Positions 1-6,000 of a stretch of DNA of 64,000 bases are shown piece by piece. The DNA is from Escherichia coli O157:H7 (GTDB taxonomy: Bacteria; Pseudomonadota; Gammaproteobacteria; Enterobacterales; Enterobacteriaceae), in the NCBI RefSeq assembly GCF_013167455.1, contig NZ_CP038328.1; one strand, given 5' to 3'. Each line of letters begins with the position of its first letter. Within the stretch, counting starts at the first letter, position 1. The position numbers were made by a program.

Positions 1-3000
1 CACGCCCATACCTGGACCTGGGTTAGCTTCAATCAGGAAGAAGATTGATTTACCCAGTTCATGGGACTGCTGAATACCCAGCGGCGAGAAGATACCGTGG
101 TTAATGGCGTTGTTGAGGAACAGGATTTTCGCCGGTTCAACAAAGATAGACGCCAGCGGCAGCATGTCATGGACAACCATGAAGTTAACGCCCGCAGCCA
201 GCATTTTGGACAGGGTTTCAACAATCGGGCCAATGCCGAGGAATGCCAGAATAGCGAGGATCATCCCGATGATGCCTGCGGAGAAGTTATTCACCAGCAT
301 CTCAAAACCGGATTTGATCTTACCGTCTACCCAGCGGTCGAAGTGCTTAATGCACCAGCCGCCCAGCGGACCTGCAATCATAGAACCGAGGAACATCGGC
401 ATGTCTGCGCCGACGATAACGCCCATGGTGGTGATGGCACCGACTACGCCGCCACGTTCGCCGCCTACCAGCTTACCACCGGTATAACCGATCAGCAGCG
501 GCAGGAGATAAGTGATCATCGGCCCGACCAGCTTCGCCAGCGTCTCGTTCGGTAACCACCCTGTTGGAATAAATAACGCGGTGATGATACCCCACGCGAT
601 AAACGCGCCGATATTTGGCATCACCATGTTGCTGAGGAAACGACCAAAGCTTTGCACTTTGATCTTAATATCGGATGACATAAAAACACCCCTTCTTATG
701 TTTGCTGTCGCGCAGGCTGGAAGCCCGAGGTTTTTTGTTAATGTGGCGGCAGAGGTAGCCGGACCTTGTAGATACTGCGAAATCTGGCACTGAATCGGTT
801 AACTGTCCAGTCGACGGCCTTTTGTGTGATATCAATCACATAAATATAGGGGGTAGAGAGGTAATTGACGTGACGTTCATCACAAAACGCTTGTGTAAAA
901 AAGCAACAAGGCGGCGATTTTCGCTAAAAATGGCATTTAAATGTGAGTAGTGTCACATTTTTGTTTTGATGGTTTGTTGAATCTTTGTGATCTGAATCAC
1001 AAGATATTTTCTTACGGCGTTCACCTGATGTGATCTACAGCATGTTATGCCTTCGTCATACAATCGTTATGTAACTAAGCAACTCATCACCTCTAAAAAT
1101 TATTCTTTGGTGTTATGGCGAGAATCGCGAACCCGGATTATTGTCAAAATATCAGCCTGACTCCCTTCTGGCTGCCAGCCCAAAAACAACACTGATAAAC
1201 GTGAATCCGAGGCAGATATGTTTCTAAACTATTTCGCGTTGGGAGTGCTGATCTTCGTCTTTCTGGTGATTTTTTATGGAATCATCGCGATACATGACAT
1301 CCCTTATCTGATTGCCAAAAAGCGCAATCACCCCCATGCCGACGCTATTCATACGGCGGGCTGGGTGAGCCTGTTTACTCTGCATGTTATCTGGCCGTTT
1401 CTGTGGATCTGGGCGACGCTCTATCAACCGGAGCGTGGCTGGGGTATGCAGTCACATGTTGCGTCGCAGGAGAAAGCGACTGACCCGGAAATCGCCTCAC
1501 TTTCTGACCGAATTTCCCGGCTGGAGCATCAACTCGCCGCCGAGAAAAAGACTGACTATTCCACGTTCCCGGAGATCTAATTATGGATCTATTGATTGTT
1601 TTAACTTACGTGGCGCTGGCGTGGGCGGTCTTTAAAATCTTCCGCATTCCGGTAAATCAGTGGACGCTGGCGACGGCGGCGCTGGGAGGCGTGTTTCTGG
1701 TGAGTGGTTTGATTTTATTGATGAACTACAACCACCCTTACACTTTTACCGCGCAAAAGGCAGTGATAGCGATCCCTATCACGCCACAGGTGACGGGAAT
1801 TGTTACTGAAGTCACTGACAAGAATAATCAGCTTATTCAAAAGGGCGAGGTGCTTTTTAAGCTCGACCCGGTTCGTTACCAGGCGCGAGTTGACAGACTT
1901 CAGGCTGACCTGATGACGGCGACGCATAATATAAAGACGCTGCGTGCGCAGCTCACTGAAGCGCAGGCCAACACCACCCAGGTTTCAGCGGAGCGCGACC
2001 GTCTGTTTAAAAATTATCAACGTTACTTGAAAGGCAGCCAGGCGGCGGTGAATCCGTTCTCGGAACGTGACATCGACGATGCGCGGCAAAATTTCCTCGC
2101 GCAGGATGCGCTGGTGAAAGGCTCGGTGGCGGAGCAGGCGCAGATCCAGAGCCAGCTCGACAGTATGGTTAACGGCGAGCAATCGCAGATTGTGAGCTTA
2201 AGAGCGCAACTTACTGAAGCAAAATATAACCTTGAGCAGACTGTCATTCGCGCGCCGAGCAATGGCTACGTTACTCAGGTACTGATCCGCCCAGGTACAT
2301 ACGCAGCTGCCTTGCCGCTGCGTCCGGTGATGGTCTTCATCCCCGAGCAAAAACGGCAAATTGTCGCCCAATTTCGGCAAAACTCGCTGTTACGTCTGAA
2401 ACCCGGCGATGATGCGGAAGTGGTGTTTAACGCGCTACCTGGGCAGGTGTTTCACGGCAAACTGACTAGTATTTTACCTGTCGTGCCAGGCGGTTCTTAT
2501 CAGGCGCAGGGGGTATTGCAATCATTAACGGTCGTGCCCGGCACGGACGGTGTGCTGGGAACCATTGAACTGGACCCTAACGATGATATCGATGCCTTAC
2601 CCGACGGCATCTACGCCCAGGTGGCGGTTTACTCCGACCATTTCAGCCATGTTTCGGTGATGCGGAAAGTGCTGCTAAGAATGACCAGCTGGATGCATTA
2701 TCTTTATTTGGATCATTGAGGGGGAGGGGGGAGATTATGGAACTTTGCTCCTTGTAAGGACTAATTATTTTTGCATATTACTTCATTAGCTGCGATGATT
2801 TTTCTTTAATATTCATTATGTTAATAAGTTCTGGATGAGTGTGCTCTCATTGGATTTTTTATCCGTCTTGTTCTGCCGCAGGATGAGACTATACATCGTC
2901 GAGATCGCAATGATGATATGAGTTGTTCCTCCTGCGACGGCTCTAATCAAAAAAGAGCAGGAGTGCTTTTCCATCTATTGCGATGATGGCTTTATTATCT

Positions 3001-6000
3001 GAAGGATGACAGTCACATTTAAAAAATATTTAATCTATAGATCACAATGTAGGGTCATGGAATATATGTATACAACTATTTTCTTCTTCACTTTTAATTA
3101 TCGTATTCATTATAAAACTAAGTTAAAAAACTCCTGGAGAGTGAGTTATTAATATATTTTTAAATGAAATTAAGTTATCATTCATCGATGCATTTTATAG
3201 AATCATCAATGGCCATAATAGTACTATTAACTCTCAATTTTATATTTTTATCATCACTACAAATATTAACTGAATTTATATCAATGATTTTTTTTATTCT
3301 TATCTTTTATTTTATTTACTGTTTCAATGCAATCAGCGGCAAGTTGGAGTGGATTTAGATTTTTCAGATATGGTCTTATGATCTTTCCCTTACTTAATAA
3401 ATAGCATGTATAGGATTCGGAAAGTCCAGCATCTATTTTGTATCTCATTATATTAGATAAGGATGTGAGAAATTCCTTGTTATCATTCGCAGCCATATAT
3501 GCCAGTCCGAGTTCAGCCTCTGCGGCCTTACAGGCAAAATAGCTTAGTGAACACGCTTTTCGTCCCTCTTTAGTACTGGCTGATATTAGTGCCCATAATA
3601 TTGCTTTGTCTGCCAAATCTAACTCTCTCTGAAATTGTCTTGCAGTAACTGCACTCGCAGAAATAGAGAAAAAAATACAATTGTTAATAACCTTGCCATA
3701 TTTTTTAGTCCGTAACTGTTAATGTGCTATCTGGCTCTGAAAATATTAACTCATTTAATTTTTGCATGTCATTAGATAAACCAGTTATACAACCCTCGGA
3801 ACAGAATCGAGGTCCTAAAGACGGACCAAAAGCGTTTAAACAACTATGTATTGAAAATCCATTGCGATTATAAGTTCCTGTATTAACTGACGGTACTAAT
3901 CGTATGCCGTCAGGTTTTCTATTGCTTGCTCCCGGGTCATTAACATTCCAACTCCATAGGCCTTGAGATATTGGCCATCTATTTATAAATGTGTACAACG
4001 GGGATTATTTTTACATTGCATATTATTACCAGAAGCGACTGGAATACTAAGCACATCATAAAAATTATCATCACATGGTATATCTGAAACACACGAAAGC
4101 ATACCTAAAGTTATGCTGTATAAACAGGTGGCTAATCCCAAGGGGATCGATTCCAGAAATCGGGTTCAACGGATACTGATAAAAATTCCACCTACCTTCC
4201 AGCCCAATCGGAGCCTGAGTGTTATACCGCCCCTGCTGCGGTTAATGTTACCGATAATAGTTATAGTACAGCCCTGATTCATCATCATACTACTGCTGCG
4301 GCAGTCTGATGAACTATTGCTTTTACGGATTCTCCTTATTCTTCCTTCTATCCATTCGCTTTAGCTTTTTGAGCTCTTGAAGTTTGCTCTTTGCATCAAT
4401 ATTACCGTTATTTACAGCGAATTCCATCCAATAAATAGCTCTATTCAAATTATAATATTCTGATAATGTTGGATTTGTATCTGATAAAAAGACCCCATAA
4501 TTAAACTGCGCTGTAACATTCCCCTGAGATGCTGATTTTTCTAAGTATCGCAATTGTTTGTAAATGTTATTTTTAGTAAAGCAGTAATATTGATATAGTC
4601 GAAATGATGCCTCTGAATCACCATGTTGTGATTTATACTTCAGTTTCATCAACTTTTCTTCACTTAAATCATAGGTCATTGCTGTAGACCCCATCATACT
4701 TTCGTTTTGTTTTATTTTCACATCAGCACCATGCAATTGACAAATAAAAGAGAAATAAAAAAATAGTAACAAGCATGCTTTCATACATCTACAACCTATC
4801 TTATATCACTGGGTTTTTCTGGCGTACCTTGCATATTAGAAATGGGGTGCCCAGATGGCCCATATGTTATCCAATTACCAAGGTCTTTTGTTGTTATAGC
4901 CATTAGATCCTTATTTGAATTAAGGTTCGTTGGTGCTGTTAGCACTGTATCCATTTTTAACTTACCATTAGTTCCTCGCCCCCACCACGTCCATAGCGTG
5001 TCAGGTCCTATTACATTTGTATGTAACTCTTTAGCTAATTGGCTAGCAAATGAATTTTGTCCTTTACCTGTATTACAAGAAAATAACCAAACTGTCATCC
5101 CATCTTTATAATTCCCATCAAATTTAATTAGATATGCTAGATCTTTAGCTGTCATGATACTGCGCGTTGCGGATTCAATAGATGTGGGGGTACCATGCCC
5201 CCCGATTGTGAAAACGCCTGGGATATTAATCTCATCAGCTACAGAATGGATAAGATCACTTTCGGGGTATAAATTTATATCAACCAAACCTTGCGGATCT
5301 ACATTTATGACCGGATTCAACGGATACTGATAAAAATTCCATCCCCCCTTCAGTCCAATCGGATCCTGAGTGATATATCGCCCGTGCAGCGGGTCATAAT
5401 AGCGGTGGCGGTTGTAATACAGGCCGGACTCCTCATCATACTGCTGCCCCGGCAGGCGGATAAGCTGCTGCAGCTGATGCGGGTTCTCTTCATTCAGCAG
5501 GTTGCCCCATTCATCGTATTCTGCGCACCATTCTGTTGCCCCTTCCGCACTGATAAGCGCCAGCGGCAGGCCGCGATGGTCGCAGTGGTACAGGTGGATT
5601 TTTCGCGCCGGCGTGTATACCGGGTCCATCTGGCTTTGCATCTGCGCCACAGTCAGGCCGCACGATGCCAGCCAGCGGCGGCTTTCCTCACTCACCCGGT
5701 CAGCCAGGATTTCACTTTCCAGCCGGTCGAGCATCTGCACCAGCACCGGCGGGAACACCACACTGCCACCGTCTTCGCCGCCGGACTGCTGAAGCGCATC
5801 CGCCAGGCTGCGGCGCTGCGTTTTCGCCAGCTCACCGGTGGCGGTTTCAACCCTGATGAGTGGCGTGAAGCTCCCCGGCTGATAAATCGTCTGGATGCGG
5901 GTTCTGTCGTTCTGTATTGTGGTCAGCCGGTCGCCGTCCCAGCCGTACCAGGTCACTTGCGGTTTCCGTGACAGCGACATCCAGCCCGTCAGGTCCCGTT

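What the first reader, a model, noticed from the sequence alone, without database searches (positions are those of the whole stretch)
2719..3280. G-rich super-Shine-Dalgarno tract with a 6-codon mini-ORF, followed by about 500 bp of AT-rich DNA with no convincing gene
Immediately after the yibH stop lies GAGGGGGAGGGGGGAG (2719-2734), then 2 nt later ATG GAA CTT TGC TCC TTG TAA (MELCSL, 2737..2757). Downstream, 2760-3280 is strongly AT-rich, and the only long ORF there (3164..3358) is low-complexity. This could be an unannotated leader or regulatory peptide, a slippage-prone homopolymeric tract, or simply the eroded distal end of the Rhs element under H-NS silencing.
Basis: seen in the sequence. 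Interest (0 to 1): 0.3.

Follow-up and report, generated by a model that had tools for sequence, protein, structure and literature searches.

The report
Decayed end of an Rhs element
The G-rich tract and six-codon ORF sit at the seam where a 6.5-kb Rhs toxin element joins the E. coli chromosome next to yibH, and the AT-rich DNA beyond is wrecked immunity-gene and transposase sequence on the opposite strand, so the finding is ordinary.

Summary
The window is E. coli O157:H7, with the gene order mtlA–yibI–yibH | RhsA-type element | yibF. The tract GAGGGGGAGGGGGGAG lies at 2718-2733, the ORF MELCSL at 2737-2757, and 2760-3280 is 29.8% GC.

The interval is not empty. On the minus strand, 3699→3178 is a frameshifted Imm57 immunity gene (K-12 yibV). 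3014→2784 is an internal fragment of an ISAs1/H-repeat transposase gene (K-12 pseudogene yibU).

About 31% of complete E. coli genomes lose homology exactly at base 2720. The three I fetched have yibH followed directly by yibF. Related genera and other Escherichia species have that same arrangement and no G tract.

Nothing supports a function:
- The mini-ORF stop codon is lost in 4 of 9 other haplotypes.
- The seam diverges as fast as the neighbouring pseudogene DNA.
- No plus-strand gene follows for 6.5 kb.
- No RNA structure, terminator or Rfam match was found.
- G-run length variants occur in only about 0.7% of genomes.

One point is unexplained. An unrelated fimbrial/autotransporter island, found in 70 genomes, starts with the same 13 bases.

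Verdict: the eroded distal end of an Rhs element, already annotated. Interest is low.

The parts
1583..2719 (+). yibH (HlyD-family membrane-fusion protein, 378 aa). This is the last conserved chromosomal gene before the island. Stop codon TGA at 2717-2719.
   Evidence: ORF list; RefSeq, Sakai and K-12 annotation.
2718..2733 (+). G-rich tract GAGGGGGAGGGGGGAG (G5-A-G6). These are the first bases inside the variable DNA.
   Evidence: Sequence. Homology with island-free genomes ends at 2720. There are three substitution variants, all 16 nt long. Anti-SD pairing is -11.8 kcal/mol.
2737..2757 (+). Six-codon ORF MELCSL*. Judged a chance ORF.
   Evidence: Sequence. The stop TAA becomes CAA in 4 of 9 other haplotypes. 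No downstream gene lies on this strand.
2720..2783 (.). 64 bp of seam DNA with no assignable origin. It contains the tract and the mini-ORF.
   Evidence: Homology to ISEc1/ISAs1 stops sharply at 2784. No other similarity was found in held sequences. It differs from the AH50 haplotype at 5 of 64 positions (7.8%), compared with 2.5% for yibH.
2784..3014 (-). Internal fragment of an ISAs1-family (H-repeat/ISEc1) transposase gene, codons ~96-172 of 378. Equivalent to K-12 pseudogene yibU (b4652, window 2816-3014).
   Evidence: tblastn E = 4e-14 to the intact ISAs1 transposase of strain AH50. blastn gives ~77% identity to ISEc1 genes over exactly 2784-3014. A weak DDE_Tnp_1 match lies below the Pfam cut-off. 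K-12 annotation.
3015..3177 (.). AT-rich spacer (21.5% GC) between the Imm57 stop and the IS fragment. It holds a sigma-70-like site on the minus strand at 3126→3097.
   Evidence: Composition; promoter scan. A published in-vitro RpoD-holoenzyme SELEX table has a row for the yibV-yibU interval with TTAACT...GATAAT (PMC3946193).
3178..3699 (-). Imm57-family immunity gene, frameshifted here. K-12 annotates the surviving 111-aa ORF (3281-3616) as yibV.
   Evidence: RefSeq annotates it as 'Imm57 family immunity protein, frameshifted'. tblastn to the intact 173-aa AH50 protein covers residues 1-173 with two frame breaks. Pfam PF15596 E = 9.5e-49.
3705..4290 (-). Wrecked orphan Rhs C-terminal toxin module with a Tlde1 domain (K-12 yibS/yibW). 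It is the partner of the Imm57 gene.
   Evidence: tblastn to the intact AH50 Rhs-CT/Tlde1 ORF, E = 5e-73, with stops and frame breaks. Pfam Tlde1_dom on the intact copy. RefSeq pseudogene.
4323..9025 (-). Main rhs gene (4796-9025, 1409 aa) and its Sel1-repeat partner yibG (4323-4784). This is the body of the element.
   Evidence: ORF list; annotation. GC is 59% in the rhs core and 34.7% in the distal part 2720-4795.
9209..9256 (+). Boundary on the yibF side. ATCACC (9209-9214) is shared with the empty site, continuous homology resumes at 9217, and the yibF ATG is at 9254.
   Evidence: Sequence and alignments with the empty site.

Best explanation
The interval is the decayed far end of an RhsA-type element, a T6SS-associated polymorphic-toxin island of about 6.5 kb (window 2720 to ~9216). 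The island occupies the short spacer between yibH and yibF.

Reading the minus strand outward from the main rhs gene, the order is:
- the main rhs gene;
- yibG;
- a wrecked orphan Tlde1 toxin module;
- its Imm57 immunity gene, frameshifted here;
- a 163-bp AT-rich spacer;
- a 231-bp internal scrap of an ISAs1/H-repeat transposase gene;
- 64 bp of unassignable seam DNA that abuts the yibH stop codon.

The G tract is the last 14 bp of that seam, and the six-codon ORF is a chance ORF within it. Neither is maintained by selection as a translation signal, a peptide gene or a phase switch.

Shown here: the anatomy, the island boundary, the ancestral state, and the lack of conservation.

Inferred:
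- The tract has no adaptive role.
- Ribosomes that finish yibH may incidentally re-engage at the tract and translate MELCSL.
- The AT-rich wreckage is transcriptionally quiet or bound by H-NS.
For: Identity and layout:
- The window is 100% identical to O157:H7 and about 99.6% identical to K-12 across this interval.
- RefSeq annotates a frameshifted Imm57 gene at 3178-3699. K-12 annotates yibV and the pseudogene yibU.

Minus-strand remnants:
- Imm57 residues 1-173 map to 3699→3181 with frame breaks. ISAs1 transposase residues 96-159 map to 3014→2822 at E = 4e-14.
- ISEc1 DNA homology of ~77% covers 2784-3014 and stops there.
- Pfam gives Imm57 at 9.5e-49.

Island boundary:
- In about 1,690 of 5,401 genomes, homology ends at window 2720.
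- Three of three genomes fetched have yibH, 70 bp, then yibF.

Polarity:
- Citrobacter, Enterobacter, Klebsiella, Raoultella, Leclercia, E. whittamii and other Escherichia lineages have yibH, a terminator or its 3' arm, then yibF, and no G tract.

No constraint:
- Against the AH50 haplotype, the seam differs at 7.8% of positions. The IS scrap differs at 6.5%, Imm57 at 6.7% and yibH at 2.5%.
- The mini-ORF stop is lost in 4 of 9 other haplotypes.
- Neither strand folds better than shuffled sequence, with z = 0.02 and 0.82.
- There is no terminator-like site and no Rfam match.
- The next plus-strand gene is yibF, 6.5 kb away.

Age of the terminal cap:
- Escherichia sp. MOD1-EC7003 has the same tract and IS scrap next to a completely different orphan toxin/immunity module.
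Against: - The tract is a very strong anti-SD match with an ATG at usable spacing (GGAGG at 2723-2727, 9 nt before the ATG). It sits 17 nt after a real stop codon, so incidental translation is physically plausible.
- 89% of element-bearing genomes carry exactly the same 91-nt junction. That is equally expected from recent common ancestry.
- An unrelated island in 70 genomes begins with the same 13 bases. That island was imported together with a divergent yibH tail, so the first part of the tract may be older than the Rhs element, or retained for a reason I cannot see.
- I found no expression data for this spot. The one supplement I could search is truncated.
Confidence: 0.85

Rival explanations
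1. The tract is a working post-stop ribosome-binding site. Ribosomes that terminate at the yibH UGA are recaptured by the strong Shine-Dalgarno sequence and translate MELCSL. This could yield a small peptide, or hold ribosomes at the 3' end to stabilise yibIH mRNA.
For: - Anti-SD pairing is -11.8 kcal/mol, about twice as strong as at neighbouring real genes.
- The ATG lies 17 nt after the stop codon, with a GGAGG 9 nt upstream of it.
- The ATG itself is conserved in all nine other haplotypes.
Against: - The stop codon is lost in 4 of 9 other haplotypes, giving a 33-codon ORF from the same ATG.
- The seam evolves as fast as the pseudogene DNA beside it.
- The whole cassette is absent from about 31% of E. 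coli and from every outgroup with the same yibIH operon.
- 18% of SD-like sites in the window have an ATG nearby by chance.
Confidence: 0.05
2. The G runs form a slipped-strand contingency tract whose length changes switch something on and off.
For: - Two adjacent G runs of 5 and 6.
- Length variants exist: about 21 complete genomes with G5-A-G5, 4 with G5-A-G7, and two gut-metagenome contigs with G5-A-G5.
Against: - Only about 25 of 3,723 genomes (0.7%) vary in length. They are scattered among unrelated strains, and one metagenome contig has ~1x coverage, so homopolymer error or background mutation would account for them.
- The common variants are substitutions that keep the tract at 16 nt.
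- The runs lie outside any coding frame and outside any promoter spacer, so a length change has no obvious readout.
Confidence: 0.02
3. The first 11-13 bases of the tract are not Rhs DNA. They are an older chromosomal junction or 'landing pad' at the 3' end of yibH, after which at least two unrelated islands have been inserted or exchanged.
For: - The DS566-type island (AraC-type regulator, fimbrial operon and S6 autotransporter; 10.4 kb; 70 genomes) begins TGA GGGGGAAGGGG. This is identical for 13 nt to the G5-AA-G5 Rhs variant, after which the two are unrelated.
- That island came in together with a yibH tail carrying 7-9 differences per 150 nt from every other haplotype.
- Both islands and the empty site share the ATCACC boundary on the yibF side.
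- An 11-nt match at a fixed position has a chance probability of about 2e-7.
Against: - No island-free allele carrying the tract was found in 120 species-representative loci or in the metagenome scan.
- No outgroup has the tract.
- The DS566 type is a single clonal event, with all 70 copies 100% identical. A one-off replacement of an Rhs element with a breakpoint inside the tract is therefore an adequate alternative.
Confidence: 0.12
4. The relevant strand is the minus strand. The C-rich complement (CUCCCCCCUCCCCCUC) helps Rho stop untranslated transcripts that leave the island's AT-rich DNA before they run antisense into yibH.
For: - On the minus strand, the 80 nt around the tract are 32.5% C and 12.5% G, the 98th percentile of C-over-G excess in the window.
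- A promoter-like site at 3126→3097 points this way, and a SELEX table row exists for that spacer.
Against: - The evidence is composition only.
- The tract is short compared with typical Rho-loading regions.
- Untranslated AT-rich RNA is a Rho substrate anyway.
- There is no conservation signal.
Confidence: 0.06

Closest known systems
Distal part of the RhsA element of E. coli K-12 (yibG, yibS, yibW, yibV, yibU, next to yibH)
   Same: It is the same locus, with the same order and strand. The sequence has 5 differences in about 1 kb, and the tract and mini-ORF are identical.
   Different: Nothing of substance within the interval. RefSeq calls the O157 Imm57 gene a frameshifted pseudogene, while K-12 annotates its surviving 111-aa ORF as a gene.
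Orphan Rhs toxin/immunity modules downstream of a main rhs gene, here Tlde1 (L,D-transpeptidase-like effector domain) with Imm57
   Same: An Rhs core-end fragment (…DPIGL…DPLGL…), a toxin domain and an immunity gene follow the main rhs and its own partner on the same strand. The pair is intact in strains AH50 and EM10-18-28.
   Different: In this window both members are broken. The toxin has stops and deletions, and the immunity gene has two frame breaks.
ISAs1-family insertion sequences (H-repeat / ISEc1, e.g. ydcC)
   Same: Window 2784-3014 is ~77% identical in DNA to ISEc1 transposase genes and 56-64% identical in protein to an intact ISAs1 transposase.
   Different: Only codons ~96-172 of 378 remain. 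Both ends are missing, with no terminal repeats, so it is an inert scrap.
Leader peptides and upstream small ORFs that control downstream genes
   Same: A strong ribosome-binding site is followed by a very short ORF.
   Different: There is no downstream gene on that strand and no alternative RNA structure or terminator. The ORF is not conserved, and it lies after a gene rather than before one.
Homopolymeric contingency (phase-variation) tracts
   Same: Runs of a single base that can slip, and rare ±1 variants do exist.
   Different: The runs are short (5 and 6 G), lie outside coding and promoter sequence, and are fixed in length in about 99.3% of genomes.

Membership tests
Rhs element distal region (orphan modules plus IS debris) | Lies downstream of a main rhs gene and its partner gene, on the same strand | tested here: met
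   rhs 9025→4796, yibG 4784→4323, then the orphan module, Imm57 and the IS scrap, all on the minus strand.
Rhs element distal region (orphan modules plus IS debris) | Orphan Rhs C-terminal fragment with the core-end motif and a toxin domain, followed by an immunity gene | tested here: met
   tblastn E = 5e-73 to the intact Rhs-CT/Tlde1 ORF, including …DPIGL…DPLGL…. Pfam matches: Tlde1_dom on the intact copy and Imm57 at E = 9.5e-49 on the window ORF.
Rhs element distal region (orphan modules plus IS debris) | Presence/absence polymorphism with a definable empty site | tested here: met
   About 3,720 of 5,426 genomes carry it. In about 1,690 the homology ends at 2720. Three fetched genomes have yibH, 70 bp, then yibF. 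Outgroups match the empty state.
Rhs element distal region (orphan modules plus IS debris) | Distal part AT-rich compared with the GC-rich core | tested here: met
   34.7% GC for 2720-4795 against 59.0% for the rhs gene.
Rhs element distal region (orphan modules plus IS debris) | Associated H-repeat/ISAs1 sequence | tested here: met
   231-bp transposase fragment at 2784-3014. An intact ISAs1 copy is present inside the element in AH50.
Leader peptide / regulatory small ORF | Ribosome-binding site and start codon at workable spacing | tested here: met
   GGAGG at 2723-2727 is 9 nt before the ATG at 2737. Pairing energy is -11.8 kcal/mol.
Leader peptide / regulatory small ORF | ORF (start, stop, peptide) conserved among relatives | tested here: not met
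   The stop TAA becomes CAA in 4 of 9 other haplotypes, and the seam diverges by 7.8%. It is absent from island-free E. coli and from all outgroups.
Leader peptide / regulatory small ORF | A regulated gene downstream on the same strand, with alternative RNA structures or a terminator | tested here: not met
   The next plus-strand gene is yibF, 6.5 kb away. Fold z = 0.02. No terminator-like site. No Rfam match.
Leader peptide / regulatory small ORF | Ribosome occupancy at the start codon | not testable with these tools
   The only searchable start-site table is truncated before this coordinate. A second paper's supplements had no entry.
Phase-variable homopolymeric tract | Run length varies commonly among isolates | tested here: not met
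   3,317 genomes have G5-A-G6, 21 have the -1 form, 4 have the +1 form, and ~381 have same-length substitution variants.
Phase-variable homopolymeric tract | Tract lies within a reading frame or between promoter hexamers, so that length sets expression | tested here: not met
   It lies after the yibH stop and before the mini-ORF ATG. No promoter-like site spans it.
Intrinsic terminator of yibH | GC-rich hairpin followed by a U run just after the stop codon | tested here: not met
   Outgroups have GGCAGG…CCTGCC-TTTT there. In the window the scan finds none, and the only hairpin is weak and rich in G·U pairs.
H-NS-silenced horizontally acquired DNA | AT-rich compared with the host genome | tested here: met
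   21.5-33% GC across 3015-3699, against 50.2% for the window.
H-NS-silenced horizontally acquired DNA | H-NS occupancy and de-repression in an hns mutant | not testable with these tools
   The papers I could read have no ChIP data for this interval. The SELEX table row for yibV/yibU carries no H-NS flag.

The most novel reading that the evidence does not exclude
The first ~13 bases of the G tract are an old junction, kept at the 3' end of yibH, that serves as a preferred breakpoint or landing site. At least two unrelated islands have entered or replaced one another there: the Rhs element and a fimbrial/autotransporter island. The tract may at the same time recapture ribosomes leaving yibH.
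Probability: 0.08. Interest if true: 0.35.

Novelty: already known. Interest (0 to 1): 0.1.

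Why it matters
It matters little beyond tidy annotation.

- The result shows that an eye-catching 'super Shine-Dalgarno plus mini-ORF' is seam DNA at an island boundary.
- It shows that an apparently gene-free AT-rich stretch is opposite-strand pseudogene debris. This debris is already annotated in K-12 (yibV, yibU) and by RefSeq (Imm57, frameshifted).
- It gives a precise map of the RhsA-type element's end in O157:H7.
- It shows that the IS scrap and seam form an old terminal cap, while the toxin/immunity modules next to it turn over.
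- It records one small puzzle, the 13-nt junction shared with an unrelated island, that could bear on how islands are exchanged at this chromosomal slot.

Tried and rejected
- **Known RNA families.** An Rfam scan of 2000-5000 at E ≤ 1 found nothing.
- **RNA structure.** Neither strand of 2690-2830 folds better than shuffles.
- **Terminator for yibH.** None was found.
- **Tract as an IS end.** ISEc1 homology stops at 2784, which is 50 bp short of the tract, and the fragment is internal to the transposase gene.
- **IEGEGGDY match.** An 8-residue plus-strand match (IEGEGGDY against IQKQGGDY of the transposase) is at chance level, E = 2, and on the wrong strand.
- **Tract as a relic of glycine codons.** In the DS566-type island the G-rich DNA is in frame with …GKGLGGTGAIG…. 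That 46-aa tail matches only its own ORF among 5.8 billion proteins, and nothing else in E. coli DNA.
- **Tract as a relic of the ancestral terminator's G-rich 5' arm.** The resemblance is weak, and no island-free allele with the tract was found.
- **Direct translation evidence.** The held supplement of the E. coli small-ORF profiling preprint is cut off at low coordinates, so its silence means nothing. The PIRT-seq supplements had no entry.
- **H-NS literature.** I found no data for this interval.
- **My earlier 'no length variation' impression.** This came from a 42-row sample and had to be corrected. Synthetic -1 and +1 queries found 21 and 4 genomes.

Full report
**Setting.** The window is Escherichia coli O157:H7. 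Bases 2600-3700 are 100% identical to several O157:H7 chromosomes and match 5,404 of 5,426 complete E. coli genomes at least in part.

The local order is:
- mtlA (minus strand, ends near 680);
- yibI (1218-1580, plus);
- yibH (1583-2719, plus);
- a block of minus-strand genes: a 1409-aa rhs gene (9025→4796), yibG (4784→4323), and broken ORFs;
- yibF (ATG at 9254, plus).

K-12 MG1655 has the same arrangement and names the broken pieces yibS, yibW, yibV and yibU. Across 2680-3670 the two strains differ at five positions, and the tract and mini-ORF are identical.

**The observation.** The tract GAGGGGGAGGGGGGAG is at 2718-2733, one base earlier than reported, and it overlaps the last two bases of the yibH TGA stop. 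The ATG is at 2737, three bases after the tract, and MELCSL* runs to 2757.

- The 16-mer with up to 3 mismatches occurs once in the window against 0.18 expected, and 17 of 100 shuffles produced one.
- Predicted pairing with the 16S rRNA tail is -11.8 kcal/mol, in the top 0.04% of 12-mers. The SD sites of yibI, yibH and yibF score -5.8 to -6.6. About eight other places in the 64 kb do as well or better.
- 18% of SD-like 4-mers in the window have an ATG 3-12 nt downstream, so the ATG adds little.
- 2760-3280 is 29.8% GC, against 50.2% for the window.

The description is therefore accurate. 'Super Shine-Dalgarno' is fair in thermodynamic terms.

**What the AT-rich DNA is.** It is gene debris on the other strand.

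- RefSeq annotates a frameshifted 'Imm57 family immunity protein' at window 3178-3699 on the minus strand.
- Strain AH50 has the intact 173-aa gene. Its residues 1-173 align to 3699→3181 with two frame breaks.
- The surviving 111-aa ORF (K-12 yibV) hits Pfam Imm57 at E = 9.5e-49.
It is a shadow ORF.
- Further out, 3014→2822 aligns to residues 96-159 of an intact ISAs1-family transposase at E = 4e-14.
- At the DNA level, ~77% identity to ISEc1/H-repeat transposase genes covers exactly 2784-3014 and stops sharply at 2784. This is K-12's yibU pseudogene. It is an internal scrap, codons ~96-172 of 378.
- Between the two lies a 163-bp spacer of 21.5% GC. It holds a sigma-70-like site on the minus strand at 3126→3097. 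A published in-vitro RNA-polymerase SELEX table lists TTAACT…GATAAT for the yibV-yibU interval (PMC3946193).
- Upstream of Imm57, 4235→3708 is a broken Rhs C-terminal module with a Tlde1 toxin domain.

Only 2720-2783, 64 bp holding the tract and the mini-ORF, has no assignable origin.

**Where the tract sits.**

- With a query spanning the end of yibH, about 1,690 of 5,401 genomes lose homology at query base 301, which is window 2720, the first base after the stop codon.
- Three such genomes were fetched. All have yibH, 70 bp, then yibF, selA and selB.
- On the far side, ATCACC at 9209-9214 and everything from 9217 onward match the empty site.
- The element is thus a ~6.5-kb insertion that replaces 32 bp of the spacer, and the tract forms its outermost bases.

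A scan of one genome per species for the conserved yibH end gave 120 loci.
- Enterobacter, Lelliottia, Leclercia, Silvania, Klebsiella, Raoultella and some Citrobacter follow the stop with a GGCAGG…CCTGCC-TTTT hairpin, then CCTGAGCCATACTGAT and yibF.
- E. whittamii, Escherichia sp. E1V33, two divergent 'E. coli' and several Citrobacter keep only the 3' arm.
- Only Escherichia sp. MOD1-EC7003 has the G tract.

The empty state is ancestral, and the tract arrived with inserted DNA. In MOD1-EC7003 the tract and IS scrap are the same as here. The adjacent orphan toxin/immunity module is unrelated, so this terminal cap is older than the modules beside it.

**Tests of a function.**

*Conservation.* I compared nine other haplotypes.
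- The tract has three forms, G5-A-G6, G6-C-G5 and G5-AA-G5, all 16 nt long.
- The ATG is kept in all nine.
- Codon 6 has a synonymous change in some haplotypes.
- The stop TAA is CAA in four, giving a 33-codon ORF from the same ATG.
- Against AH50 the seam differs at 5 of 64 positions (7.8%). The IS scrap differs at 6.5%, Imm57 at 6.7% and yibH at 2.5%.

*Length variation.* A 42-row sample first suggested none. Synthetic queries then found exact -1 and +1 forms. The three searches share the same pool of partial hits, so the identity bands give:

| Tract form | Genomes |
|---|---|
| Standard G5-A-G6 | 3,317 |
| -1 length variant (G5-A-G5) | 21 |
| +1 length variant (G5-A-G7) | 4 |
| Same-length substitution variants | ~381 |
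| Total | 3,723 |

Two gut-metagenome contigs also have G5-A-G5, one of them at ~1x coverage. A 0.7% rate scattered over unrelated strains is what background homopolymer mutation or assembly error would give. The runs are also in no frame or promoter spacer that could read their length.

*Structure.* Neither strand folds better than shuffles. There is no terminator-like site and no Rfam family.

*Context.* The next gene on the plus strand is 6.5 kb away, so there is nothing for a leader peptide to control.

*Expression.* I could not obtain evidence. The searchable supplement of the E. coli small-ORF profiling preprint is truncated at low coordinates, and another paper's supplements had no entry. 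H-NS binding is likewise untested.

**What remains unexplained.**

- Seventy genomes, all 100% identical at the junction, carry a different 10.4-kb island in the same slot. It has an AraC-type regulator, a fimbrial operon and an S6-family autotransporter.
- It begins TGA GGGGGAAGGGG. This matches the G5-AA-G5 Rhs variant for 13 bases, and beyond that the two are unrelated.
- Its yibF side keeps the ancestral ATCACCTGC-TTTTTT arm, which the Rhs haplotype lacks.
- Its last 150 nt of yibH differ at 7-9 positions from every other haplotype.
- So yibH tail, tract, island and yibF leader came in together from a divergent donor.

Either the first part of the tract was already chromosomal where both islands landed, or one island replaced the other with a breakpoint inside the tract. 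Neither the species scan nor the metagenome scan found an island-free allele with the tract. The ORF that continues from the tract in that island has no relatives.

**Mechanism and verdict.** The best-supported account is that nothing here works as a unit. The interval is the eroded distal end of an RhsA-type element: an Imm57 tail, a spacer, an ISAs1 scrap and a seam. The G tract and mini-ORF are seam sequence under no detectable constraint (confidence 0.85).

Three steps are inferred rather than shown:
- that ribosomes leaving yibH may incidentally translate MELCSL;
- that the C-rich complement may help Rho stop antisense transcripts (98th percentile of C-over-G excess);
- that H-NS covers the AT-rich DNA.

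The locus and its pseudogenes are already annotated in K-12 and RefSeq, so this is known biology. Interest is low, at 0.1. The shared 13-nt junction is the only loose end.

Noticed in passing
L005 4298-4440; L135 1-10530 (E. coli DS566-2, NZ_CP092532.1): A 10.4-kb island (AraC-type regulator, fimbrial operon, S6-family autotransporter) fills the same yibH-yibF slot in 70 genomes. It starts with the same 13 bases as the Rhs G tract. It arrived with a divergent yibH tail and keeps the ancestral terminator 3' arm on the yibF side.
   Followed up: partly
L008 4758-5859 (AH50); L132 1988-2921 (EM10-18-28); L130, L131, L133, L134: The orphan Tlde1 toxin and Imm57 immunity pair is intact in AH50 and EM10-18-28. 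Four other lineages keep an intact 173-aa Imm57 gene with no annotated toxin gene beside it. O157 and K-12 have lost both. The immunity gene appears to outlast its toxin.
   Followed up: partly
L119 1-2290 (Escherichia sp. MOD1-EC7003): The G tract and ISAs1 scrap are the same as in the window. The adjacent orphan module is unrelated: a 231-aa toxin tail and a 149-aa putative immunity protein, preceded by an ISAs1 transposase C-terminal piece.
   Followed up: no
window 2717-2760 versus outgroup loci L105, L023, L067, L075, L089 and others: The yibH terminator hairpin (GGCAGG…CCTGCC-TTTT) seen in most Enterobacteriaceae has lost its 5' arm in Escherichia and several Citrobacter, even at empty sites. 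E. coli yibH therefore has no recognisable intrinsic terminator whether or not the island is present.
   Followed up: partly
window 3097-3126, minus strand: A sigma-70-like site (TTAACT, 18 nt, GATAAT) lies in the 21.5%-GC spacer. It coincides with a published in-vitro RpoD-holoenzyme SELEX entry for the yibV-yibU interval. It points towards the IS scrap, the C-rich tract and antisense yibH.
   Followed up: partly
window 1566-1590 and 2728-2745: The yibH ribosome-binding region (GGAGATCTAATTATGGATCT) and the mini-ORF start (GGAGATTATGGAACT) share GGAGAT and the 8-mer ATTATGGA. This is probably coincidence.
   Followed up: no
L009 1164-2413 (E. coli 24AR0357): yibH carries an extra ~113 bp and is annotated as a frameshifted pseudogene with an internal stop. 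The downstream tract and island are unchanged.
   Followed up: no
window 4796-9025; L001 5197 onward: The main rhs ORF is intact in the window (1409 aa). RefSeq marks the corresponding gene in the best-matching O157:H7 record (ECP19-598) as frameshifted, and Sakai annotates it as intact 'rhsC'. A published comparison of the two EDL933 assemblies reports discrepancies at this rhs gene (PMC7216683).
   Followed up: no
H321-H336 (complete genomes); L149, L190 (gut metagenomes): Rare ±1 variants of the second G run. About 21 genomes have G5-A-G5 and 4 have G5-A-G7. Several -1 cases are ETEC assemblies whose similar strain names and accession numbers suggest a single series. I could not tell real slippage from homopolymer assembly error.
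   Followed up: partly
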